Of a DNA stretch of 64,000 nt, positions 29,057-62,602 are shown in pieces (the stretch's first letter is position 1; each line of letters opens with the position of its first letter). This DNA comes from Anaerohalosphaeraceae bacterium (GTDB lineage: Bacteria > Planctomycetota > Phycisphaerae > Sedimentisphaerales > Anaerohalosphaeraceae), in assembly GCA_963675155.1 (NCBI GenBank), contig OY775912.1, forward strand, positions 296,058 to 360,057, in the 5' to 3' direction. A model generated the notes under the pieces. It was not told the origin of the DNA. It saw nothing but the letters and a program-made list of their open reading frames with translations, and searched no databases. Position numbers and translations under genes: made by a program.

Positions 29057-30649
29057 TTATATATTGTTGATTTCTTTCCATGAAATGCTGAATTTAGCTA
29101 AATATTTCTTTAATCGGTCTGCATCATTGGGCCGGGCCTTTTGTGTTCTGGAGACATTGAAAAGCTGTCGTCCTGCCTCAGATAGACTTTTGGCTTTTGA
29201 ACATACTTTTATGACATGAGCCAGTTGCGGCCTGTCAAATTCGTCAATTTTAGCCAGTCTTTCTTTTCCGAGGAGTTTTTCCAAGAGATCGGTATTGTTA
29301 TCTTGTCTGGCCGATTGCCAGGATTTAAGGAGTCTCTGGATTTCTTCTTCCACAATATCTTCGCAGATTCGGCCTCCGGGGGCCAGTGTGGCCATGCGGG
29401 TAATCGCCCCGATCAGATCACGGAAATTCGATTTCCACATTGCTTGGCCCGACGTACTGAATGACAGGAAGCGTCTTTGAGCTTCTTTATTAAATCTGAC
29501 ATGCGTGCCGGCTTTACTGGCGTATTGATCCAGTTCGTACTGGATATTAGGCTCGATGTCTTCGCGGCGATCCTTCAAACCCGGCAGGTGAAACGTCCAC
29601 AGGTTGATTCTGGCCAGCAGGTCTTCGCGGAATTGCCCGGAATTGATATTGGCCTGTAAATCTCTATTGGTCCCACAGATCAGCTGAAAGTCGCTGCTGA
29701 CCTCTTTGTCAGATCCAACGGGCAGGAATTTCTTTTCTTCGATGGCTCGAAGCAGCATCGATTGCTCCTCAATGCCCAGTTCGCCAACTTCATCGAGGAA
29801 TAGAATACCGCCATCGGCTGTTTTTAAGAGACCCTCTCTGGCCTGTACAGCACCTGTAAACGCTCCTTTTGTATGCCCAAAGAGGGCTGACATCGCTGCG
29901 TCACCCCGAATGGTTGCACAGTTGACCTCTACAAAATCCCCTCTGAGTTTTTTGTGCGTCTTTTTAAGCTCAAAGATTCGTTGGGCTAGCTGGGATTTAC
30001 CGGCTCCGGTAGGTCCCATGAGCAGAATAGGATCTGTTGTCCGGGCTCCAACATGCTCGATCCGTTCAATCAGGGCATTGAAATTCTTATTCTTTGTTTG
30101 GATACCGGATTTTAAAAATGAGATATCGTCACACAACTGCTGCTTGAACCGCATCGCGATTCGGTCATACTTGGACAGGTCTAAATCGATAATTTGATAA
30201 CTGCCCGGTCCCTGATCTGTTTCTCGTTTTGGAGGGCTTGTTTGCAGCAGTCTGCCGGGGAAGTAGCGAGATTCGGTTAACAGGAACTCGCATATCTGAG
30301 AAACGTGTGTCCCTGTTGTGATATGGACTAAATACTCTTCATGGTCAGGGTCAAAGTCATAGTCTTTCGAAAAGTCATGGAGGACGCCGTACACCTCCTG
30401 GAAGTCCCAGGGATTATCCCAGTCAATGACATGAGGGACCACCTTTGTTTCCGGGGAAACAAGACCGATGTCTTTGATCACGCTTTTAGCGATCTTCTCG
30501 AATTTCCGTTGAAAGAGTAATTCAAAACGATCGACCAGCAGTTCTTCGTGTTGGCAGATTGAGACCGTTGGCCGCCAGAAGTTCCAGCGATCCGGTCCTT
30601 GCCCGCGGTCGAGATTAGGCCCCAACAATCCGATGACTACATTCTTCAT
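29057..30649 (-). CDS. rtcR: RtcR: sigma-54-dependent transcriptional activator with N-terminal CARF-like domain
   Basis: AAA+ sigma-54 interaction domain with GAFTGA (HTKGAFTGA), Walker A GPTGAGKS, ILFLDEVGEL. Long N-terminal non-receiver domain typical of RtcR CARF. Divergent from the rtcA/rtcB block. Confidence 0.85.
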   Translation of the reverse strand: MKNVVIGLLGPNLDRGQGPDRWNFWRPTVSICQHEELLVDRFELLFQRKFEKIAKSVIKDIGLVSPETKVVPHVIDWDNPWDFQEVYGVLHDFSKDYDFDPDHEEYLVHITTGTHVSQICEFLLTESRYFPGRLLQTSPPKRETDQGPGSYQIIDLDLSKYDRIAMRFKQQLCDDISFLKSGIQTKNKNFNALIERIEHVGARTTDPILLMGPTGAGKSQLAQRIFELKKTHKKLRGDFVEVNCATIRGDAAMSALFGHTKGAFTGAVQAREGLLKTADGGILFLDEVGELGIEEQSMLLRAIEEKKFLPVGSDKEVSSDFQLICGTNRDLQANINSGQFREDLLARINLWTFHLPGLKDRREDIEPNIQYELDQYASKAGTHVRFNKEAQRRFLSFSTSGQAMWKSNFRDLIGAITRMATLAPGGRICEDIVEEEIQRLLKSWQSARQDNNTDLLEKLLGKERLAKIDEFDRPQLAHVIKVCSKAKSLSEAGRQLFNVSRTQKARPNDADRLKKYLAKFSISWKEINNI

Positions 30650-30786
30650 GGTATATATATCCGTATATAGAATTATAATATATTATAAGTATAAGTGTCG
30701 GCTCATTTATGGTCAATGCTTAATTGATAATTTTTATGCCATTCTAAATAAAGGAGTTATGTTCATTTTTGCTTTTATTTAAAAGT

Positions 30787-30802
30787 CTGGCACGCAGGTT
30801 GT
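30787..30802 (+). promoter_or_regulatory. sigma-54 (-24/-12)-type promoter candidate, oriented toward the tRNA-like element / SPFH / tRNA array / rtcAB
   Basis: TGGCACG-CAGG-TTGTA versus consensus TGGCACG-N4-TTGCW; the -12 element is GT instead of GC. Lies ~140 bp from the rtcR start, on the opposite strand. Confidence 0.45.
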
Positions 30803-31000
30803 ACATAGTAGATCAAGTAATTAACGCTCTTATGAAAATTAAAGATGAAGTTTCCGCCGGGCCAGCGGCATACCAGTGACAGCCATGCTGTTTCATTGCG
30901 TATGTACCGTGAGTGGGTTCTAACGAAGGTGGAACTATTCGAGCGGCGAGAATTGGAAAATGCGACCAATGTCAATTCTTTCGATTCCCGCATCGGATCC

Positions 31001-31085
31001 CAATGGTTAGCTCAGAGGGTAGAGCATCGGGCCGTTAACCCGAAGTCGTGGGTTCGATTCCCACACCGACCGCCGCGAGAGCGGC
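31001..31085 (+). ncRNA. tRNA-like element with canonical D-arm, anticodon arm (GTT, Asn-type) and T-arm but no good 7-bp acceptor stem, followed by a GNRA-capped hairpin
   Basis: TAGCTCAGAGGGTAGAGC D-arm. TCGGG-CCGTTAA-CCCGA anticodon arm. GTGGG-TTCGATT-CCCAC T-arm. The 5' strand CAATGGT pairs only 4/7 with the 3' strand ACCGACC. Then GCCGC-GAGA-GCGGC. Confidence 0.4.
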
Positions 31086-31448
31086 TCAAAGAAGGGCTCG
31101 AAGGAAACATTTGGTCTATCTGGCAGTTGACAGGTTTTTCTGACTCACCTCGTTGGCCTGTCAACACCATTTGTAAACGCTCTGCAGTATGCGGATACCG
31201 CTTACTTCTGGCCAAGAGCAAAGACGTCGATGACGAACAAGCAATGACGGATTTCGCTGGTAATAGGAAATCTGAAATTGCGACCTTCCGAATCGCCTCT
31301 TACCTTGTTCAAAGTGAACTTAAGCATGCTCCGCGTGAAAGATGGGGCAATAGTCAAATGTTTCCTGAAAGCCTCTTATGACAAATGCCCGGCGATAAAT
31401 GAAAGAATAAATACAAGGTGAGAAAATAGAATAAAAAGGAGAATTAAA

Positions 31449-32552
31449 ATGAGTATTAAAACGATCAAAATCCATTCGTATGAAAAGGGATTCCACTTCC
31501 GTAACGGTGAGCTGATTGGTTTGCTGGACGAAGGTCGCCACTGGTTTCTGAAACCTGTTGCGAAGGACCAGGTTTATGTATCAAACCTGCGAGATCCTTG
31601 GATTCGCCATAACGACCTTGACTTGATTGTTAAGTCCGGCGTTTTGGAAGGCAAGGCTCAGGTTCTGGACCTTCAGGACTTCCAACGCGGGTTGGTCTGG
31701 GTGGATGGTCGTTTTGAAGCGATTGTGTCCGGCGGAATCTATGCGATCTGGACGACGCATCGTGCCGTGAAAGTGGAAATCATTGATGCACGGGACGTTC
31801 GGTTTAACCACCGTGACATCAGCGTTATCCTGAAATCCTCAGGTGCCAAAGAGCTTTTGGATGAGAACACCGTCGCTGAAGATCACGTGGGTGTTTACTT
31901 CCAGAATGGCCGCTATGTGGAAACGCTGGATGCCGGGCGCTATGTGTTCTGGAAAGGCATTGAGAAAGTACATGTTTTTCAGGTGGATCTGTCCGAGTTG
32001 TCTTTGGATATCTCCGGCCAGGAAATCATGACGGCGGATAAAGTGACTTTGCGTATGAATGCGGTGGTTGCTTACACCGTTCAGGATGCTGAAAAGGCCG
32101 TTCGTTCGACAACGGATGTCAAGCAGTCGCTGTACCGCGAAACTCAGTTGGCCTTGCGAGCGATTGTTGGGTCACGTCAGCTGGATGAATTGCTGGCTGA
32201 TAAGGATGCTCTGGCTGATGAACTACAAGGTCAGATTGCAGAGCGAGCCGAGTCATTCGGTTTGAAGCTGACAGCTCTGGGAATTCGAGATGTGATCCTG
32301 CCCGGTGAAATGAAGAATCTGTTGAATAAGGTGACTGAGGCTAAAAAGGCGGCAGAAGCGAACCTGATTGCTCGCAGAGAAGAGACCGCCGCGATGCGTT
32401 CTCAGGCAAACACAGCCAAGTTGCTGGAAAACAACCCTGTATTGATGCGGCTGCGTGAACTGGAAGTACTGGAAAACATCTCAACCAATTCCAAGTTGAA
32501 TGTGGTGCTGGGTGAAAAAGGGCTGGCCGATAGAGTGGTCAACCTGTTGTAG
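31449..32552 (+). CDS. SPFH/band-7 (stomatin/flotillin-like) domain protein
   Basis: SPFH-like core (LRMNAVVAYTVQDAEKAVRSTTDVKQSLYRETQLALRAIVGSRQLDELLADKDALADEL...LKLTALGIRDVILPGEM) and coiled-coil tail. RBS aaaaaggag. Confidence 0.7.
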   Translation: MSIKTIKIHSYEKGFHFRNGELIGLLDEGRHWFLKPVAKDQVYVSNLRDPWIRHNDLDLIVKSGVLEGKAQVLDLQDFQRGLVWVDGRFEAIVSGGIYAIWTTHRAVKVEIIDARDVRFNHRDISVILKSSGAKELLDENTVAEDHVGVYFQNGRYVETLDAGRYVFWKGIEKVHVFQVDLSELSLDISGQEIMTADKVTLRMNAVVAYTVQDAEKAVRSTTDVKQSLYRETQLALRAIVGSRQLDELLADKDALADELQGQIAERAESFGLKLTALGIRDVILPGEMKNLLNKVTEAKKAAEANLIARREETAAMRSQANTAKLLENNPVLMRLRELEVLENISTNSKLNVVLGEKGLADRVVNLL

Positions 32553-32618
32553 GCGGCAGAAGAAGGGGCAGGCCGGAAGTTTCACCGGTCTGTCCCGCGC
32601 AAAAAAGTAAAGGTTGAA

Positions 32619-32692
32619 TGCTCCGTGGCCCAACTGGAAGAGGCAGCGGGTTTTGAACCCGTTCGTTGCAGGTTCGATTCCTGCCGGAGCTG
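32619..32692 (+). tRNA. tRNA-Gln (anticodon TTG)
   Basis: Manual fold: acceptor TGCTCCG/CGGAGCT (U1.U72 mismatch). Anticodon arm GCGGG-TTTTGAA-CCCGT. T-arm GCAGG-TTCGATT-CCTGC. Confidence 0.65.
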
Positions 32693-32697
32693 AATGA

Positions 32698-32772
32698 CTG
32701 GATGTAGGGCAGCCTGGGTAGCCTACTCGCCTTGGAAGCAAGACGTCGTTGGTTCGAATCCAACCATCCAGA
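32698..32772 (+). tRNA. tRNA-Pro (anticodon TGG)
   Basis: Acceptor CTGGATG/CATCCAG perfect. D-arm GGGCAGCCTGGGTAGCCT. Anticodon loop CTTGGAA. T-arm GTTGG-TTCGAAT-CCAAC. Confidence 0.7.
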
Positions 32773-32774
32773 CT

Positions 32775-32847
32775 GTGACCGTAGCTTAATTGGTAAAGCA
32801 CCAGATTGTGATTCTGGGGAGTACGGGTTCGAGTCCCGCCGGTCACC
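32775..32847 (+). tRNA. tRNA-His (anticodon GTG); no encoded G-1
   Basis: Acceptor GTGACCG/CGGTCAC, discriminator C. Anticodon arm CCAGA-TTGTGAT-TCTGG. T-arm ACGGG-TTCGAGT-CCCGC. The nucleotide at -1 is T. Confidence 0.65.
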
Positions 32848-32867
32848 CTTTGAAAAGAGAATGTTGA

Positions 32868-32938
32868 GCGTTGACGGTATAATGGCAACATACGGGCTTG
32901 CCAAGTCTGTGATGGGAGTTCGAATCTCCCTCGACGCA
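32868..32938 (+). tRNA. tRNA-Gly (anticodon GCC)
   Basis: Acceptor GCGTTGA/TCGACGC. Anticodon loop TTGCCAA; the anticodon stem has two G-U pairs. T-arm GGGAG-TTCGAAT-CTCCC. Confidence 0.6.
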
Positions 32939-32941
32939 ATC

Positions 32942-33012
32942 GGCCTCGTCGTCTAGTGGCAGGACACCAGATTTTCGATCTGTGAACGTGAGTTTGATTC
33001 TCACCGAGGCTA
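32942..33012 (+). tRNA. tRNA-Glu (anticodon TTC)
   Basis: D-arm TCGTCTAGTGGCAGGAC typical of tRNA-Glu. Anticodon loop TTTTCGA. T-arm GTGAG-TTTGATT-CTCAC. Acceptor GGCCTCG/CGAGGCT (G1.U72). Confidence 0.6.
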
Positions 33013-33018
33013 TTAATC

Positions 33019-33092
33019 GGCTCTGTAGCCCAATTGGCAGAGGCGGCGGACTTAGAATCCGCTCAGTGTAGGTTCGACTCCTACCGGGGCTA
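33019..33092 (+). tRNA. atypical tRNA: Gln-like body with anticodon TAG (would read CUA Leu codons) and a short class-I variable loop
   Basis: D-arm GCCCAATTGGCAGAGGC and T-arm GTAGG-TTCGACT-CCTAC closely resemble the tRNA-Gln at 32619. Anticodon arm GCGGA-CTTAGAA-TCCGC. 5-nt variable loop, unlike class-II tRNA-Leu. Acceptor has three G-U pairs. Confidence 0.45.
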
Positions 33093-33097
33093 GTAAA

Positions 33098-33169
33098 GGA
33101 ACGGTAGCTGAGATGGTTTAGCGAAAGCCTGAAAAGGTTCAGACGTTGGTTCGAACCCATCCCGTTCCA
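33098..33169 (+). tRNA. tRNA-Phe-like (anticodon GAA) with weak anticodon stem and one T-stem mismatch; possibly a pseudo-tRNA
   Basis: Acceptor GGAACGG/CCGTTCC perfect. Loop CTGAAAA. The anticodon stem AAAGC/GGTTC has only 3 Watson-Crick pairs. Confidence 0.45.
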
Positions 33170-33254
33170 CTTAATGGAAATATAATTTGAATAACCTAAT
33201 TAAGATGGATACAATCTCATAGACAACAATAAAGGAGTTTAAAGGAATACAGCA

Positions 33255-34274
33255 ATGATTACGATTGATGGATCATTTGGAGAAGGTGGCGGACAAATTC
33301 TTCGCAGCAGCGTGGCATTGTCGCTGATTACCGGGAAACCATTTCAAATCGAGAATATTCGAGCCGGACGTAAAAAGCCCGGTTTGATGCGGCAGCACTT
33401 AACCGCAGTTAATGCGGCCGTTGAAGTGGGTGCCGCTGATGTGAGCGGTAATGCGATTGGATCGCAGAGCTTGACCTTCGCACCGAAAGCAATTAATGCG
33501 GGTACTTACAAGTTTGCGGTTGGGACTGCAGGCAGCACAACGCTTGTGCTGCAAACAATTCTGCCAGCTTTGCTGATTGCTGATAAACCCTCTGAGATTA
33601 CATTGGAAGGTGGAACACACAATCCGTTTGCTCCGCCATTCAGCTTCCTGGAAAAGGTGTTCGTTCCTGTTCTGAATAAAATGGGACCTGAGATCAGCCT
33701 GGACCTTCAACGCCCGGGTTTTTATCCTGCCGGTGGTGGATGCTTTACGGTCAAGATTCAACCTAAAGCGAAGTTGGACAGAATTGACATCATCGAGCGA
33801 GGTGAGATTGTCAGCCGATCTGCTAAGGCCTATGTGGCTTATCTGTCGGAGAAAATCGCCAGCCGGGAACTGAGAGTGATACGGAACAAGCTTTCGTGGG
33901 ACGAAAAGGACACGGAGATTATCAAAGTACGGGATTCAAATGGTCCGGGTAATATCGTGACGGCAGAGATTCAAAGTGAGAATATTACTGAGCTATTTAC
34001 TGGTTTTGGAATGAAGGGTTTGCCTGCGGGTAAAGTGCCGCTGGGGATGGTCGATGAAGCTCGGGAGTACTTGGCCGCAGGGGTTCCTGTGGCAAGACAC
34101 CTGGCCGATCAGTTGATGATTCCGATGGCCATGGCTGGCGGTGGAACGTTTAGAACGCTGCCGTTGACGCTGCATTCGACGACGAATATCGAGATTCTGA
34201 AAAAGTTCTTGGATGTTCAGGTTGAAGTCACCAAACTGGAAAAAGATTTTTATGAAATCAATATCATCGCGTGA
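33255..34274 (+). CDS. rtcA: RNA 3'-terminal phosphate cyclase RtcA
   Basis: N-terminus ITIDGSFGEGGGQILRSSVALSLITGKPFQIENIRAGR, typical of RtcA. ~339 aa. RBS aaaggag. Confidence 0.9.
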   Translation: MITIDGSFGEGGGQILRSSVALSLITGKPFQIENIRAGRKKPGLMRQHLTAVNAAVEVGAADVSGNAIGSQSLTFAPKAINAGTYKFAVGTAGSTTLVLQTILPALLIADKPSEITLEGGTHNPFAPPFSFLEKVFVPVLNKMGPEISLDLQRPGFYPAGGGCFTVKIQPKAKLDRIDIIERGEIVSRSAKAYVAYLSEKIASRELRVIRNKLSWDEKDTEIIKVRDSNGPGNIVTAEIQSENITELFTGFGMKGLPAGKVPLGMVDEAREYLAAGVPVARHLADQLMIPMAMAGGGTFRTLPLTLHSTTNIEILKKFLDVQVEVTKLEKDFYEINIIA

Positions 34275-35704
34275 TGATTGACGATGGAGATAATGAAATG
34301 AAAACACGACAATTAGCGAATCTTGGAATCCCTCGCGGGGAAACCATGAAGATGACTCAGGACGCGATTAAGCAATGGCTTCAATCGTATGACGGCTATC
34401 TGAATAATGCGGCGATCTGCCAGAAGATCAATGACCTGGCCAAGAATCCATCTGAATATCTGGAAGATGAGCACTTTGGTCAAATTGCTAAAATACTGAA
34501 TGAAAGCAAGGAGGCACGAGCGACTTATGTCGATCGCCCAGAGCCGGCTTACTACCAGCGGTGGGGTTCGGATCTGGAAGATAAGGCGATTGAGCAGATG
34601 GAAAATGCGTGCAAACTGCCGATTTCCATTTGTGGTGCCTTGATGCCGGATGCTCATGTGGGTTATGGCTTGCCGATCGGCGGCGTTCTGGCAACTCAAG
34701 ATGCGGTTATCCCATACGCCGTTGGGATGGACATTGCCTGCCGTATGAAAATGACGGTGTTGGATTTGCCGGTTAATGCGTTGACGGGACAAGCGGATCG
34801 TTTGAAAAATGCTCTTGAGACTGAAACGCGTTTTGGTGTTGGGGCATCGTTCAAAAAATACCGTGAACATGACGTGATGGATGAAGACTGGTCGTTTAGC
34901 CCGATTGTTAATCGATTTAAGGACAAAGCCTGGAGTCAGCTTGGAACCAGCGGAAGCGGAAACCATTTTGCCGAATTTGGAACATTGATGCTGGATCAGG
35001 ATGATCTTGGGCTTAAGGCCGGGACTTATCTAGCCTTGCTGAGTCATAGTGGAAGCCGGGGGATTGGAAACGAAATCGCTACGTACTTCAGCAAGCTGGC
35101 AGTCCAGAAGCATCCGGAATTGCCAAAAGAGCTGATGCATCTGTCATGGTTGGATACCGATAGTGCCGAGGGCCAGGAATACTGGCAGGCGATGGAACTG
35201 ATGGGACGCTATGCGGCGGCCAATCATAAGCTGATCCATCGGCATATTGCCAAAAACCTGAACGTTAAGGTGCTTTTGGATGTGGAAAACCACCATAACT
35301 TTGCCTGGAAAGAAGTGCATGACGGGCAGGAAGTAATTGTTCACCGTAAGGGTGCGACGCCTGCCGATGACGGTGCGCTTGGAATTATTCCCGGATCAAT
35401 GGGGACATCCGGCTATGTGGTTCGCGGAAAAGGTAAGCCCGAATCGCTAAACTCTGCTTCTCATGGAGCAGGCCGGAAGATGAGCCGTAAGAAAGCCAAA
35501 GAGACATTTACCTGGCATGATGCCAAGAAATTTCTCAAGGATCGCGGTGTTCAGCTGATCTCTGCAGGACTGGATGAGGTCCCAATGGCGTATAAAGATA
35601 TCGAGGAAGTGATGGCTGCTCAGAATGATCTGGTTCAGCCAATCGCTCGCTTCGATCCAAAAATCGTAAAAATGGCCCCAGCCGGAGAAAGACCGGAGGA
35701 TTAA
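34271..35704 (+). CDS. rtcB: RNA-splicing ligase RtcB (3'-phosphate/5'-hydroxyl RNA ligase); the called ORF has an N-terminal extension
   Basis: RtcB blocks (MPDAHVGYGLPIGGV, HNFAWKEVHDGQEVIVHRKGATPA, IIPGSMGTSGYVVRG, SASHGAGR). Start overlaps the rtcA stop (ATGA). Confidence 0.9.
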   Translation: MMIDDGDNEMKTRQLANLGIPRGETMKMTQDAIKQWLQSYDGYLNNAAICQKINDLAKNPSEYLEDEHFGQIAKILNESKEARATYVDRPEPAYYQRWGSDLEDKAIEQMENACKLPISICGALMPDAHVGYGLPIGGVLATQDAVIPYAVGMDIACRMKMTVLDLPVNALTGQADRLKNALETETRFGVGASFKKYREHDVMDEDWSFSPIVNRFKDKAWSQLGTSGSGNHFAEFGTLMLDQDDLGLKAGTYLALLSHSGSRGIGNEIATYFSKLAVQKHPELPKELMHLSWLDTDSAEGQEYWQAMELMGRYAAANHKLIHRHIAKNLNVKVLLDVENHHNFAWKEVHDGQEVIVHRKGATPADDGALGIIPGSMGTSGYVVRGKGKPESLNSASHGAGRKMSRKKAKETFTWHDAKKFLKDRGVQLISAGLDEVPMAYKDIEEVMAAQNDLVQPIARFDPKIVKMAPAGERPED

Positions 35705-35706
35705 CA

Positions 35707-36279
35707 ATGTGTCATTTTCTAACAGCTGTATTATCAGCAGACGCTGATATTGAAAATTGTAGTTTAATTGCAGAGAAATTCCAGCGAATTTTTGAACCTG
35801 TTTCAAATCAACACGTTCAAAAACAGCTGGAACCTAAGATGAAATACTATTGCATGACAAAGGGTAATTGTGATTGCGGCACAATATGGGGCAAGGGGAA
35901 CGGATCTGGAGATATCAAGAAGAAAATGAATCGTAAACTTAAAAAGCTTCGAAATAAAGGATGGTCTGAAGCTAAAATAAAACGATTTATAGAAAGCAAA
36001 AATCAGGCTTCTCAAGGTGATCAAGCAAGTCTCAAGAAACAACATGTAGATTGTGAAACGTTAGCACAGCAATGGATATCATTTGTTTCGGAAATCATTG
36101 ACCAAGGTTTATCAGACTATATGGGGATTCTTCTGCATTGGTACTCCGGAAATCTTGAAAAGGAAAAAGTTGATATCCAGCAAATAGAGAAAATTACGTT
36201 GAGTGAGCTCACCCCAACCTTTATATGGAAAGCCAAAGAAGACGTGCTGTATATCTTTAAGAAAAATAGGGGTGTATAG
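35707..36279 (+). CDS. hypothetical Cys- and Lys-rich protein (unknown family), translationally coupled between rtcB and prfH
   Basis: ATG 3 nt after the rtcB stop. Stop TAG overlaps the GTG start of the next gene (tagtg). CMTKGNCDCG cluster and basic stretch KKKMNRKLKKLRNKGW. Locally lower GC than the neighbours. Confidence 0.5.
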   Translation: MCHFLTAVLSADADIENCSLIAEKFQRIFEPVSNQHVQKQLEPKMKYYCMTKGNCDCGTIWGKGNGSGDIKKKMNRKLKKLRNKGWSEAKIKRFIESKNQASQGDQASLKKQHVDCETLAQQWISFVSEIIDQGLSDYMGILLHWYSGNLEKEKVDIQQIEKITLSELTPTFIWKAKEDVLYIFKKNRGV

Positions 36280-36938
36280 TGACAAATTGGTTACAAGTTA
36301 CCTCAGGGCGTGGACCAGATGAATGCTGTTGGGTTGTGGCCAGGGTTGTCGAGGCAATCACTCAAGATGCGTCGGCAAATGGCTATAACTTAAATGTATT
36401 GGAAGTCGTGCCGGGAAGTAAGCCGGATTTGTTTAAGTCAGCACTGCTTTCTATTGAAGGCGACGGTTTATCTGAATTCTTGTCTCAATGGGAAGGGACG
36501 ATTCAGTGGATTGGAAAAAGTCAATTCCGTCCCAAGCATAAGCGGAAAAACTGGTTTGTGGGTGTCACATCTTATGAAGCTCCTGAAGAAGTTGATTATA
36601 GCTGCAGTGAATTTCGATTTGAAAGCATGCGATCATCCGGTCCCGGCGGTCAGCACGCTAACAAAATCGAATCGGCCGTGCGTGTCACCCATATGCCCAC
36701 GGGAATTAATGCCATCGCACAGGAAGAACGATCCCAGCATATGAATCGAAAATTGGCATTAAGCCGGTTGCATAAAAAACTCCAGCAACAAAAGCAGAGT
36801 ACTGAAATGCAGCTCCAGCAGGAACGATGGGATGAACATAATGCCTTGGAAAGAGGCAACCCCATCCGAGTGTATGAAGGTCTCAAATTCAAGCTAAAAA
36901 GAATAGACAAAAATAAAGAGTTAAGGATTATTCGATGA
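36279..36938 (+). CDS. prfH: PrfH-type (RF-H) peptide chain release factor homolog with GGQ motif, lacking the RF domain 1
   Basis: SSGPGGQHANKIESAVRVTH GGQ domain. N-terminal SGRGPDECCWVV...GTIQWIG...RPKHKRKNWF pattern characteristic of the RF-H family. ~219 aa. Encoded immediately after rtcB, as in described rtcB-prfH pairs. Confidence 0.75.
   Translation: MTNWLQVTSGRGPDECCWVVARVVEAITQDASANGYNLNVLEVVPGSKPDLFKSALLSIEGDGLSEFLSQWEGTIQWIGKSQFRPKHKRKNWFVGVTSYEAPEEVDYSCSEFRFESMRSSGPGGQHANKIESAVRVTHMPTGINAIAQEERSQHMNRKLALSRLHKKLQQQKQSTEMQLQQERWDEHNALERGNPIRVYEGLKFKLKRIDKNKELRIIR

Positions 36939-60742: not shown

Positions 60743-62602
<1,860 letters not shown>

What the first reader, a model, noticed from the sequence alone, without database searches (positions are those of the whole stretch)
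30787..30802. Sigma-54-type promoter positioned to drive the whole tRNA/SPFH/rtcAB/prfH block
TGGCACG-CAGG-TTGTA matches the -24/-12 consensus in spacing and at 11 of 12 conserved positions; the -12 element is GT rather than GC. It is divergent from rtcR with ~140 bp available for an upstream activator site, as at E. coli rtcR-rtcBA. No comparable motif lies directly upstream of rtcA. The site at 33174..33190 has wrong spacing and no GC. This implies tRNAs may be transcribed from an activator-dependent sigma-54 promoter, which is unusual.
Basis: partly seen in the sequence, partly recalled or inferred. Interest (0 to 1): 0.55.

Follow-up and report, generated by a model that had tools for sequence, protein, structure and literature searches.

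The report
RtcR sigma-54 promoter driving embedded tRNAs
The motif is very probably the activator-dependent (sigma-54) promoter of an RNA-repair operon, ordinary in kind, except that this operon also carries seven tRNA genes, so fresh tRNAs would be made exactly when damaged tRNAs are sensed.

Summary
TGGCACGcaggTTGTA lies at 30788-30803 (+), 138 nt from the divergent rtcR start codon. E. coli rtcR-rtcBA has the same layout, with 134 nt. The GT at -12 has an exact precedent in the E. coli pspA promoter (TGGCACGcaaaTTGTA).

The motif alone is not beyond chance in 64 kb, but its position is. 46 of 55 RtcR loci from many phyla carry such a motif 100-200 nt from rtcR, where about 0.0075 per locus is expected. 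A weight matrix built from 38 independent RtcR-linked sites ranks this site first in the window. RtcR keeps its GAFTGA loop.

Downstream lie a roughly 635-nt conserved non-coding leader with the band-7-associated tRNA-like element, a Band-7/SPFH gene, a conserved hairpin without a U tract, seven closely packed tRNAs, then rtcA-rtcB-p190-prfH. Only 22 nt separate the hairpin from the first tRNA. tRNAs are similarly embedded in RtcR operons of at least four other lineages.

Co-transcription is therefore likely but not shown. A conserved sigma-70-like promoter just upstream of rtcA probably adds RtcR-independent expression of rtcA-prfH. Whether the organism has rpoN could not be checked.

Verdict: a new member of a known promoter class, in a new operon variant.

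The parts
29057..30649 (-). rtcR: CARF-type RtcR domain, sigma-54-interaction AAA+ domain and C-terminal region; GAFTGA at residue 262, Walker A GAGKS at residue 215
   Evidence: Pfam RtcR 4.9e-81 and Sigma54_activat 5.8e-50; motifs
30688..30716 (-). sigma-70-like promoter of rtcR itself (TTGACC-17-TATACT)
   Evidence: Consensus scan. The same TTGACC-17-TATATT occurs at the equivalent place in L001. Predicted only.
30664..30687 (.). two overlapping TATAA-N4-TTATA dyads 10 bp apart (TATATAGAATTATA, TATAATATATTATA), 124 and 114 nt upstream of the -24 motif; candidate RtcR upstream activator sequence
   Evidence: The dyad is found in 16 of 40 RtcR intergenic regions against 0.25 expected, in 10-bp phased tandems at about -145 to -102 in several phyla. 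Inferred; the region is AT-rich.
30788..30803 (+). sigma-54 -24/-12 promoter TGGCACGcaggTTGTA; predicted start near 30814
   Evidence: precedents in E. coli rtcBA and pspA
30814..31448 (+). about 635-nt conserved non-coding leader; the mechanical ORF 30845-31381 is not a gene
   Evidence: Alignment with L001 and L078 shows high conservation with 1-nt and 23-nt indels that break the frame; no Pfam hit; nhmmer finds parts of it in 36 loci
30937..30998 (+). decayed first tRNA-like element (the 5' half of the T stem is lost through a 23-nt deletion relative to L001 and L078)
   Evidence: Alignment. The intact counterpart in L078 (300-379) scores 46.4 bits on Rfam tRNA and is called tRNA-Leu(gag) by ARAGORN in L001 and L078.
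31005..31067 (+). band-7-associated tRNA-like element (b7a-tRNA core): D, anticodon and T arms, with only a 3-bp acceptor stub
   Evidence: Rfam tRNA 53.2 bits, model positions 5-66 of 71; not called by ARAGORN; a 38-sequence alignment shows compensatory changes in the anticodon and T stems; described in 10.1101/312249
31449..32552 (+). Band-7/SPFH (slipin-type) protein, 367 aa
   Evidence: Pfam Band_7 1.5e-31; more than 6000 homologues, about 60% identical across phyla
32565..32596 (+). 12-bp GC-rich hairpin just after the SPFH stop codon, with no U tract; probable mRNA 3'-end stabiliser or attenuator
   Evidence: Fold -25.9 kcal/mol, z -3.4. Conserved in L001 and L078, and by position in L002, L117 and L140. 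In L140 rtcA starts about 22 nt after it.
32619..33170 (+). seven tRNA genes with spacers of 1-19 nt: Gln(UUG), Pro(UGG), His(GUG), Gly(GCC), Glu(UUC), Leu(UAG), Phe(GAA); none encodes CCA
   Evidence: ARAGORN; Rfam tRNA 48.7-65.1 bits; sequence features
33187..33215 (+). sigma-70-like promoter TTGAAT-17-TACAAT, 40 nt upstream of rtcA
   Evidence: Scan. The hexamers and the 17-nt spacing are kept in L001 (TTGAAT/TAAAAT) and in L078 although the spacer sequence has diverged. Predicted only.
33255..34274 (+). rtcA, RNA 3'-phosphate cyclase
   Evidence: Pfam RTC 1e-82
34271..35704 (+). rtcB, RNA ligase; overlaps rtcA by 4 nt
   Evidence: Pfam RtcB 6.9e-90; NCBIfam RtcB families, below the equivalog cut-offs
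35707..36279 (+). p190: AT-rich (GC about 0.35) 190-aa ORF of unknown function, absent from the closest relatives
   Evidence: No Pfam or NCBIfam hit; composition; absent from L001 and L078
36279..36938 (+). prfH, release-factor homologue H, with a GGQ motif
   Evidence: NCBIfam TIGR03072, 257.7 bits against a cut-off of 166.65; GGQ seen in the translation

Best explanation
The site is the RtcR-activated sigma-54 promoter of a composite operon that responds to damage of the translation apparatus.

How it would work (inferred by homology to E. coli and Salmonella):
1. tRNA fragments ending in a 2',3'-cyclic phosphate bind the CARF domain of RtcR.
2. RtcR assembles on the phased TATAA-N4-TTATA dyads about 115-125 bp upstream of the -24 element.
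3. Through its GAFTGA loop it opens the sigma-54 holoenzyme bound at 30788-30803, and transcription starts near 30814.

What the transcript would contain (inferred from anatomy and synteny): first a structured roughly 635-nt leader holding the band-7-associated tRNA-like element, then the Band-7/SPFH gene. It then passes a U-less hairpin and runs through seven tRNA genes into rtcA-rtcB-p190-prfH.

Processing (not shown): RNase P and RNase Z would cut out the tRNAs, and the CCA-adding enzyme would finish them. Cutting would leave the SPFH mRNA ending in the protective hairpin.

Second promoter (predicted): a conserved sigma-70-like promoter at 33187-33215 would give rtcA-prfH a basal level that does not depend on RtcR.

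Net effect: sensing of broken tRNAs induces fresh (or decoy) tRNAs, end-healing and ligation enzymes and a ribosome-rescue factor together.
For: - Motif and spacing.
- Same geometry as the E. coli rtcBA promoter, CTGGCACGACGGTTGCA 134 nt from rtcR.
- Same TTGTA -12 variant as the E. coli pspA promoter.
- 46 of 55 RtcR loci have the motif at 100-200 nt, against 0.0075 expected.
- Best PWM score in the whole window.
- RtcR has RtcR/CARF and Sigma54_activat domains with GAFTGA.
- Phased dyads in the spacer.
- All genes from 30804 to 36938 are on one strand. No terminator-like site lies on that strand, and no sigma-70-like site lies between 30400 and 33186.
- The hairpin ends 22 nt before tRNA-Gln, and spacers between tRNAs are 1-19 nt.
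- In L140 rtcA follows the equivalent hairpin by about 22 nt. In L010 SPFH-rtcA-tRNA gaps are 24 and 36 nt, followed by 18 tRNAs. In L018 three tRNAs sit 10 nt after an ORF and 37 nt before rtcB. L001 has 8 tRNAs at the same place, and L002 and L003 also carry co-oriented tRNAs.
- Literature precedent: RtcR/sigma-54 drives the tRNA-like YrlA RNA in Salmonella and is activated by tRNA halves (PMC7790460).
- Literature precedent: in Anabaena a tRNA array, rtcB and a slipin gene are co-induced by translational stress (PMC8421152, PMC10272220).
Against: - No transcript data exist.
- rpoN is not in the window and could not be sought in the rest of the genome.
- The -12 element is GT, not GC, which occurs at this position in only about 6% of the RtcR-linked sites used for the matrix. 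The site scores 16.9 bits against a median of 21.1.
- A 12-bp GC-rich hairpin (-25.9 kcal/mol) lies between SPFH and the tRNAs and might terminate or attenuate transcription in this phylum.
- The conserved sigma-70-like promoter upstream of rtcA shows that the block is not necessarily a single-promoter unit.
- L078, a close relative, has the same operon without tRNAs, so the tRNAs are not essential to it.
- Promoter rules for Planctomycetota are poorly known, so an unrecognised tRNA promoter inside the 3' end of SPFH cannot be excluded.
Confidence: 0.72

Rival explanations
1. The sigma-54 promoter is real but serves only the leader/b7a-tRNA and SPFH. The hairpin after SPFH acts as a U-less terminator. 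The tRNAs and rtcA-prfH are then expressed from other promoters that do not depend on RtcR.
For: Strong conserved hairpin immediately after the SPFH stop codon. Conserved sigma-70-like promoter before rtcA. The b7a-SPFH module occurs without rtcAB in many metagenome loci.
Against: The hairpin has no U tract and is followed by an A-rich stretch. Only 22 nt separate it from the first tRNA, and no promoter-like site is predicted upstream within SPFH. In L140 the equivalent hairpin is about 22 nt from the rtcA start, so read-through is required there. In L010 there is no hairpin and SPFH-rtcA-tRNA gaps are 24 and 36 nt. RtcR would then not control rtcA and rtcB, the genes it controls in every studied system (PMC7790460).
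Confidence: 0.15
2. The seven tRNAs are ordinary housekeeping genes expressed constitutively from an unrecognised promoter within the 3' part of SPFH or the hairpin region. Their position inside the rtc operon is incidental, and the sigma-54 promoter adds at most a little.
For: tRNA genes are usually driven by strong sigma-70 promoters (general knowledge). Promoter consensus in Planctomycetota is poorly defined. The array content differs between the window and L001 and is absent from L078, as expected for insertions.
Against: tRNAs recur, always co-oriented and tightly packed, inside RtcR operons of five unrelated lineages and at different positions. The same SPFH family is linked to tRNA arrays in 31 of 42 metagenome loci, with 447 of 449 tRNAs co-oriented. 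Several of these tRNAs look atypical: a class-I-shaped tRNA-Leu and a tRNA-His without G-1. No sigma-70-like site is predicted.
Confidence: 0.1
3. The motif is a chance match with no promoter function.
For: Single-window statistics are unimpressive. The -12 element is GT, not GC.
Against: Positional conservation in 46 of 55 RtcR loci, the top PWM score in the window, a layout matching E. coli to within 4 nt, the aligned motifs in L001 (TGGCACACCGATTGTT) and L078 (TGGTATGAGTGTTGCC), and the functional pspA precedent for TTGTA.
Confidence: 0.03

Closest known systems
E. coli rtcR-rtcBA and Salmonella rtcR / rsr-yrlBA-rtcBA sigma-54 promoters (Genschik et al. 1998; Hughes et al. 2020, PMC7790460)
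   Same: Divergent rtcR. A -24/-12 motif 134 nt (E. coli) against 138 nt (here) from the rtcR start. An RtcR with CARF-type, AAA+ (GAFTGA) and C-terminal DNA-binding parts. rtcA and rtcB downstream. In Salmonella a tRNA-like RNA (YrlA) is made from the same promoter.
   Different: Here the operon starts with a b7a-tRNA leader and a Band-7 gene in place of rsr and Y RNAs. It contains seven bona fide tRNA genes and ends with prfH. The -12 element is GT. A sigma-70-like internal promoter precedes rtcA. The candidate activator sites (TATAA-N4-TTATA) are not seen in E. coli.
E. coli pspA sigma-54 promoter
   Same: Nearly the same core: TGGCACGCAAATTGTA against TGGCACGCAGGTTGTA, including the TTGTA -12 variant; also divergent from its activator gene.
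   Different: Different activator (PspF, which has no sensory domain) and an unrelated regulon.
Band-7 / b7a-tRNA / RtcB neighbourhoods predicted by Burroughs and Aravind 2016 (as summarised in 10.1101/312249)
   Same: A tRNA-like non-coding RNA directly upstream of a Band-7 gene next to RtcB.
   Different: The original paper could not be read here, so I cannot say whether it noted true tRNA genes, the sigma-54 promoter or the long conserved leader. In this window one of the two tandem tRNA-like elements has decayed.
Long tRNA arrays (L-arrays) and the TrcR regulon of Anabaena (PMC8421152, PMC10272220)
   Same: Auxiliary tRNAs co-regulated with rtcB and a slipin/Band-7 gene and induced when translation is damaged. 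The metagenome relatives of this SPFH gene sit at the end of arrays of up to about 40 tRNAs that contain an HNH ORF, as the cyanobacterial arrays do.
   Different: In Anabaena control is by a repressor at sigma-70 promoters, and cyanobacteria have no RtcR or sigma-54. The genes there are dispersed. Here only seven tRNAs are present and they lie inside the repair operon.
RtcB2-PrfH ribosome repair and rescue module (PMC9304027, PMC9223846)
   Same: rtcB followed by prfH in one operon; PrfH passes the NCBIfam equivalog cut-off.
   Different: Here the pair is joined to rtcA, separated by an extra ORF (p190) and placed under RtcR. The RtcB does not reach the 'release_rtcB' cut-off.

Membership tests
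sigma-54 (-24/-12) promoter | GG and GC doublets exactly 10 nt apart within TGGCAC-N5-TTGC | tested here: inconclusive
   GG-N10-GT: the spacing is exact and 11 of 12 consensus positions match, but C(-12) is T. The same variant is found in the E. coli pspA promoter and in L001 and L010.
sigma-54 (-24/-12) promoter | A cognate enhancer-binding protein with an intact GAFTGA loop encoded nearby | tested here: met
   RtcR is divergent at 138 nt, with Sigma54_activat 5.8e-50 and GAFTGA at residue 262.
sigma-54 (-24/-12) promoter | Upstream activator sites about 80-150 bp upstream | tested here: inconclusive
   Two phased TATAA-N4-TTATA dyads lie at -124 and -114. The dyad is enriched (16 of 40 regions against 0.25 expected) and phased at 10 bp in many lineages. 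Binding was not tested and the sequence is AT-rich.
sigma-54 (-24/-12) promoter | rpoN present in the genome | not testable with these tools
   rpoN is not in the 64-kb window or in any fetched locus. rpoN is reported for the planctomycete Rhodopirellula baltica (PMC2754498).
sigma-54 (-24/-12) promoter | Transcription start about 12 nt downstream of the -12 element that depends on sigma-54 and the activator | not testable with these tools
   No transcript data are available.
RtcR-regulated rtc RNA-repair operon | RtcR (CARF-type N-terminal domain plus AAA+) divergent from an operon that contains rtcB and usually rtcA | tested here: met
   Pfam RtcR 4.9e-81, RTC 1e-82 and RtcB 6.9e-90; the orientation is divergent.
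RtcR-regulated rtc RNA-repair operon | Promoter at the conserved distance from rtcR | tested here: met
   138 nt here, 134 nt in E. coli, and 129-181 nt in 46 of 55 loci.
Band-7 / b7a-tRNA module | A tRNA-like non-coding RNA immediately upstream of a Band-7 gene next to RtcB | tested here: met
   Rfam tRNA 53.2 bits at 31005-31067, which is 381 nt upstream of the Band_7 gene. The element is present in 57 related places and its stems covary. The definition is taken from 10.1101/312249.
YrlA Y RNA (Rfam RF02553) | Score at or above the Rfam gathering threshold; adjacent rsr (Ro60) | tested here: not met
   The only hit scores 22.7 bits against a threshold of 69 and lies inside the tRNA array. 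In L078 the score is 26 bits. No Ro60 gene is in the operon.
tRNA array unit / L-array | At least 20 tRNA genes at a density of at least 2 per kb (PMC4758250); up to 43 genes (PMC8421152) | tested here: not met
   There are seven tRNAs in 552 nt: the density is met, the number is not. Related SPFH loci do carry arrays of 20-40 tRNAs.
RtcB2-PrfH module | PrfH equivalog next to a PrfH-associated RtcB | tested here: inconclusive
   PrfH TIGR03072 scores 257.7, above the 166.65 cut-off. RtcB TIGR03073 'release_rtcB' scores 162, below the 271.8 cut-off.

The most novel reading that the evidence does not exclude
RtcR/sigma-54 operons in several phyla have recruited sets of tRNA genes. The same sensor that detects cleaved tRNAs would then switch on replacement or decoy tRNAs together with repair and ribosome-rescue enzymes. 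The b7a-tRNA/Band-7 module is the common link that also caps the long tRNA arrays seen in metagenomes. This would make stress-inducible, activator-dependent tRNA supply a widespread arm of the defence of the translation apparatus, wired independently through sigma-54 here and through a repressor in cyanobacteria.
Probability: 0.45. Interest if true: 0.7.

Novelty: new variant of a known kind. Interest (0 to 1): 0.55.

Why it matters
tRNA genes are textbook examples of strong, growth-rate-controlled sigma-70 transcription. A set of tRNAs placed behind an activator-dependent sigma-54 promoter would be different, because the activator (RtcR) is known to be switched on by broken tRNAs. That arrangement would form a closed damage-and-replacement circuit.

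It gives a concrete, testable function for auxiliary tRNA arrays: resupply, or decoys against anticodon nucleases. It also bears on the still uncharacterised Band-7/b7a-tRNA module. And it parallels the experimentally shown co-induction of a tRNA array, rtcB and a slipin gene in Anabaena, which uses a completely different regulator.

The promoter itself is ordinary. The operon content is the interesting part.

Tried and rejected
- **Motif statistics in the window alone.** They do not exceed chance at 2 mismatches and only marginally at 1, so I rejected them as sufficient evidence and used comparative position instead.
- **The second near-consensus site at 61504.** It is inside a 660-aa ORF with no activator nearby, so I treated it as chance.
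- **ORF 30845-31381 (178 aa) as a gene.** Rejected: there is no family hit, and the frame is broken by indels in L001 while the DNA stays conserved.
- **The leader as a YrlA-type Y RNA.** Rejected on the Rfam score and the absence of Ro60.
- **The SPFH hairpin as an intrinsic terminator.** It has no U tract, and read-through is required in L140.
- **Looking for rpoN.** The RpoN-box search of the window and of all fetched loci found nothing. An exact look-up of window proteins gave only an unnamed 4.9-Mb contig and no DNA.
- **Burroughs and Aravind 2016.** It could not be opened by DOI or PMC id.
- **Plasmid and viral collections.** These gave no close SPFH relatives except one IMG/VR contig that duplicates a metagenome array.
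- **p190.** No family was found; a HamA/DUF1837 hit at E 0.0035 is not significant.
- **tRNA sequence comparison.** The window tRNAs are only 57-77% identical to same-anticodon tRNAs of the long arrays, so direct derivation from those arrays is not shown.

Full report
**1. The observation**

The window reads TGGCACGCAGGTTGTA at 30788-30803 on the + strand. It fits TGGCACG-N4-TTGCW at 11 of 12 specified positions. GG (30789-30790) and the -12 doublet (30801-30802) have the canonical spacing, but the doublet is GT instead of GC.

As a bare pattern it is not remarkable. With up to two mismatches the window has 8 matches against 10.1 expected. With up to one mismatch it has 2 against 0.47, and 7 of 100 shuffles do as well. 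The other one-mismatch site (61504) lies inside a long ORF.

**2. Why it is nevertheless real**

The ORF at 29057-30649 (-) is RtcR: Pfam RtcR 4.9e-81 and Sigma54_activat 5.8e-50. Its Walker A motif and the GAFTGA loop that contacts sigma-54 are intact. The motif starts 138 nt from the rtcR start codon and points away from it.

In E. coli K-12 the rtcBA promoter motif CTGGCACGACGGTTGCA starts 134 nt from the rtcR ATG in the same arrangement. I fetched 77 loci encoding RtcR relatives from one genome per species; the closest is a Sedimentisphaerales MAG at 90% identity. In 46 of the 55 loci with enough upstream DNA, a motif with GG and at least 10 of 12 consensus matches lies 100-200 nt from rtcR in the divergent orientation. 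The density of such motifs over all this DNA predicts 0.0075 per locus.

A weight matrix built from 38 distinct RtcR-linked sites, leaving out the window and its 90% relative, gives the window site 16.9 bits. That is the best score on either strand of the 64 kb; the next is 12.5 bits. The training range is 13.0-27.6, with a median of 21.1.

The TTGTA variant of the -12 element is that of the E. coli pspA promoter, TGGCACGCAAATTGTA. That pspA is sigma-54-dependent is established knowledge. The closest relative L001 has TTGTT and L010 has TTGTA at the same place. L078 has TGGTATGAGTGTTGCC at the aligned position.

**3. The activator space**

The 138-nt spacer is AT-rich. It holds two overlapping dyads 10 bp apart: TATATAGAATTATA (30664-30677) and TATAATATATTATA (30674-30687).

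The dyad TATAA-N4-TTATA occurs in 16 of 40 RtcR spacers against 0.25 expected from shuffles. It typically comes as two to five copies phased by 10 bp between about -145 and -102 from the -24 motif. It is seen in Lentisphaerota, Ignavibacteria, Planctomycetota and others, but not in the GC-rich alphaproteobacterial loci or in E. coli.

I take this as a candidate RtcR binding array. It is inferred, not shown, and it overlaps a sigma-70-like promoter for rtcR itself (TTGACC-17-TATACT, 30716-30688, minus strand) that is conserved in L001.

**4. What lies downstream**

*Leader.* From the predicted start (about 30814) to the SPFH start (31449) there are about 635 nt. The mechanical ORF there (30845-31381) has no family hit. 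In L001 it is interrupted by 1-nt and 23-nt indels while the DNA stays highly conserved, so it is non-coding.

*tRNA-like element.* At 31005-31067 Rfam's tRNA model scores 53.2 bits over model positions 5-66 only, and ARAGORN does not call it. The same element precedes homologous SPFH genes in 57 places. In a 38-sequence alignment the D, anticodon and T arms are kept with compensatory changes, the anticodon loop varies, and only a 3-bp acceptor stub is conserved. This matches the 'band 7-associated tRNA' predicted next to RtcB by Burroughs and Aravind 2016, as described by Wang et al. (10.1101/312249). I could not open the original paper.

*Second tRNA-like element.* In L078 and L001 a second, complete tRNA-like element lies 6 nt upstream. 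In the window it has lost half of its T stem.

*SPFH and hairpin.* The Band-7/SPFH gene (31449-32552) is followed 12 nt later by a 12-bp GC-rich hairpin (32565-32596, -25.9 kcal/mol, z -3.4) with no U tract. The hairpin is conserved in L001 and L078, and by position, not by sequence, in L002, L117 and L140.

*tRNAs.* Twenty-two nucleotides after the hairpin, seven tRNA genes begin (32619-33170), separated by 1-19 nt. They score 48.7-65.1 bits on Rfam's tRNA model.

*Repair genes.* rtcA, rtcB, p190 and prfH follow with overlaps or 2-nt gaps.

*Transcription signals.* The consensus scan finds no terminator-like site on the + strand between 30400 and 37200. It finds no sigma-70-like site on that strand before 33187.

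**5. Is the block one transcription unit?**

Nothing can be proven without RNA data, but the anatomy argues for read-through. The tRNAs have no room for a promoter of their own between the hairpin and tRNA-Gln.

In L140 the equivalent hairpin is about 22 nt from the rtcA start codon, so transcription must pass it. In L010 (Ignavibacteriaceae) the SPFH-rtcA and rtcA-tRNA gaps are 24 and 36 nt, and 18 tRNAs follow to the end of the contig.

In L018 three tRNAs lie 10 nt after a 140-aa ORF and 37 nt before rtcB. L001 has eight tRNAs at the same place as the window. Gln, Pro, His, Gly and Leu(UAG) are shared at 89-93% identity and the rest differ. L002 and L003 also carry co-oriented tRNAs. L078 (SPFH 82% identical) has none, so the tRNA cargo turns over quickly.

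Against a single-promoter picture stands TTGAAT-17-TACAAT at 33187-33215, 40 nt before rtcA. It is kept as TTGAAT-17-TAAAAT in L001 and L078, although the spacer in L078 has diverged. I read this as an internal sigma-70-type promoter that gives rtcA-prfH a basal level. Such a level would make sense because RtcA activity feeds RtcR activation in Salmonella (PMC7790460) and RtcA/B are needed for RtcR activity in E. coli (PMC9650030, abstract). That link is an inference.

**6. Mechanism proposed**

Broken tRNAs with cyclic-phosphate ends activate RtcR; this is shown in Salmonella (PMC7790460, PMC10159003) and inferred here. RtcR, bound at the phased dyads, opens the sigma-54 complex at 30788-30803.

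The transcript yields the b7a tRNA-like leader, SPFH, seven tRNAs released by RNase P and RNase Z and completed by the CCA-adding enzyme (none encodes CCA), and then RtcA, RtcB, p190 and PrfH. The hairpin would protect the SPFH mRNA end created by tRNA excision.

The tRNAs would replace or shield the cell's own tRNAs while RtcA/RtcB heal and seal RNA and PrfH frees damaged ribosomes (PMC9304027, listed). Which of these roles the tRNAs play is open. Some look atypical: tRNA-Leu(UAG) has a short variable region, and tRNA-His has C73 but T at -1.

**7. Comparison with what is known**

The promoter is a new member of a known class, the RtcR-dependent sigma-54 promoters (Genschik 1998, as cited in PMC7790460).

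Transcription of a tRNA-like RNA from such a promoter is known (YrlA in Salmonella). The b7a-tRNA/Band-7/RtcB neighbourhood has been predicted.

Co-induction of an auxiliary tRNA array with rtcB and with a slipin gene has been shown in Anabaena. There it works through the TrcR repressor at sigma-70 promoters, in a phylum without RtcR (PMC8421152, PMC10272220).

I found no paper describing true tRNA genes inside an RtcR/sigma-54 operon. The caveat is that the 2016 survey was not readable. Hence the verdict: new variant of a known kind.

**8. A wider pattern seen on the way**

The SPFH family is very conserved, at about 60% identity across phyla, with more than 6000 homologues.

In metagenome contigs it usually sits, preceded by the b7a element, at the 3' end of long tRNA arrays of up to about 40 genes. 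These arrays have an HNH ORF between tRNA-His and tRNA-Trp. 31 of 42 loci with at least 1500 nt upstream have co-oriented tRNAs, and 447 of 449 tRNA calls are on the SPFH strand.

The b7a/Band-7 module therefore links tRNA arrays and Rtc repair in either combination. The window shows both.

**9. Limits**

- rpoN could not be sought in the genome. Only the GAFTGA loop and the presence of rpoN in another planctomycete (PMC2754498) speak for it.
- All promoter, terminator and activator-site calls are consensus-based.
- The weight matrix was trained on sites first picked by consensus.
- No expression data exist.

Noticed in passing
window 31005-31067 and 30937-30998; L078 300-379 and 386-450: The leader carries the band-7-associated tRNA-like element. 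Close relatives have two tandem tRNA-like elements 6 nt apart. In the window the first one has decayed through a 23-nt deletion that removes half of its T stem.
   Followed up: partly
window 30814-31448: The whole roughly 635-nt leader is conserved with L001 and L078, including a 9-bp long-range stem (GTTGACAGG at 31126-31134 with CCTGTCAAC at 31157-31165). It looks like a large structured RNA rather than a simple 5' UTR. Parts of it (leader positions 40-400) recur in distant SPFH loci.
   Followed up: partly
window 32565-32596: A 12-bp GC-rich hairpin without a U tract lies right after the SPFH stop codon. It is conserved by sequence in close relatives and by position in three distant lineages.
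   Followed up: yes
window 33187-33215: A sigma-70-like promoter (TTGAAT-17-TACAAT) lies upstream of rtcA. Its hexamers and spacing are conserved in L001 and L078 while the spacer has diverged. It implies expression of rtcA-prfH that does not depend on RtcR.
   Followed up: partly
window 30664-30687; RtcR loci L009-L011, L034-L057, L117: Tandem TATAA-N4-TTATA dyads are phased 10 bp apart at a fixed distance upstream of the -24 element in several phyla. They are a candidate RtcR binding array, apparently undescribed, and are absent from E. coli and alphaproteobacterial loci.
   Followed up: partly
window 33019-33092 and 32775-32848: tRNA-Leu(UAG) is 74 nt long with a 5-nt variable region, so it lacks the long arm typical of bacterial tRNA-Leu. 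tRNA-His has C73 but T at -1, so no G-1 is encoded. None of the seven tRNAs encodes CCA.
   Followed up: partly
window 35707-36279: p190 is an AT-rich (GC about 0.35) 190-aa ORF inserted between rtcB and prfH. It is absent from L001 and L078 and has no family match, so it is likely a recent acquisition of unknown function.
   Followed up: partly
L080-L152, for example L082 900-7101 and L085 1064-7101: The SPFH family and its b7a element cap long co-oriented tRNA arrays of up to about 40 genes in many metagenome contigs. The arrays have a conserved terminal order (Trp, Thr, Arg, Arg, Arg, Cys) and an HNH-motif ORF (L082 4241-4837) between tRNA-His and tRNA-Trp. Most of these contigs show no rtcAB nearby.
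   Followed up: partly
L160 (IMG/VR contig IMGVR_UViG_3300007072_000340): A 94-kb contig classified as viral carries the same 36-tRNA array plus SPFH as metagenome locus L082. Otherwise the family is almost absent from the viral collection (2 loci).
   Followed up: no
L080 277-292 and L081 308-323: A GG-containing sigma-54-like string (TGGCACGGGCCCTGGT and TGGCGCGGGCCTTGGT) recurs just after tRNA-His inside long arrays. It has no GC at -12 and probably lies within the HNH ORF region.
   Followed up: no
window 61504-61519: TGGCAAGCAGATTGCT, the second-best sigma-54-like site, lies inside a 660-aa ORF with no activator nearby. It is probably chance.
   Followed up: yes
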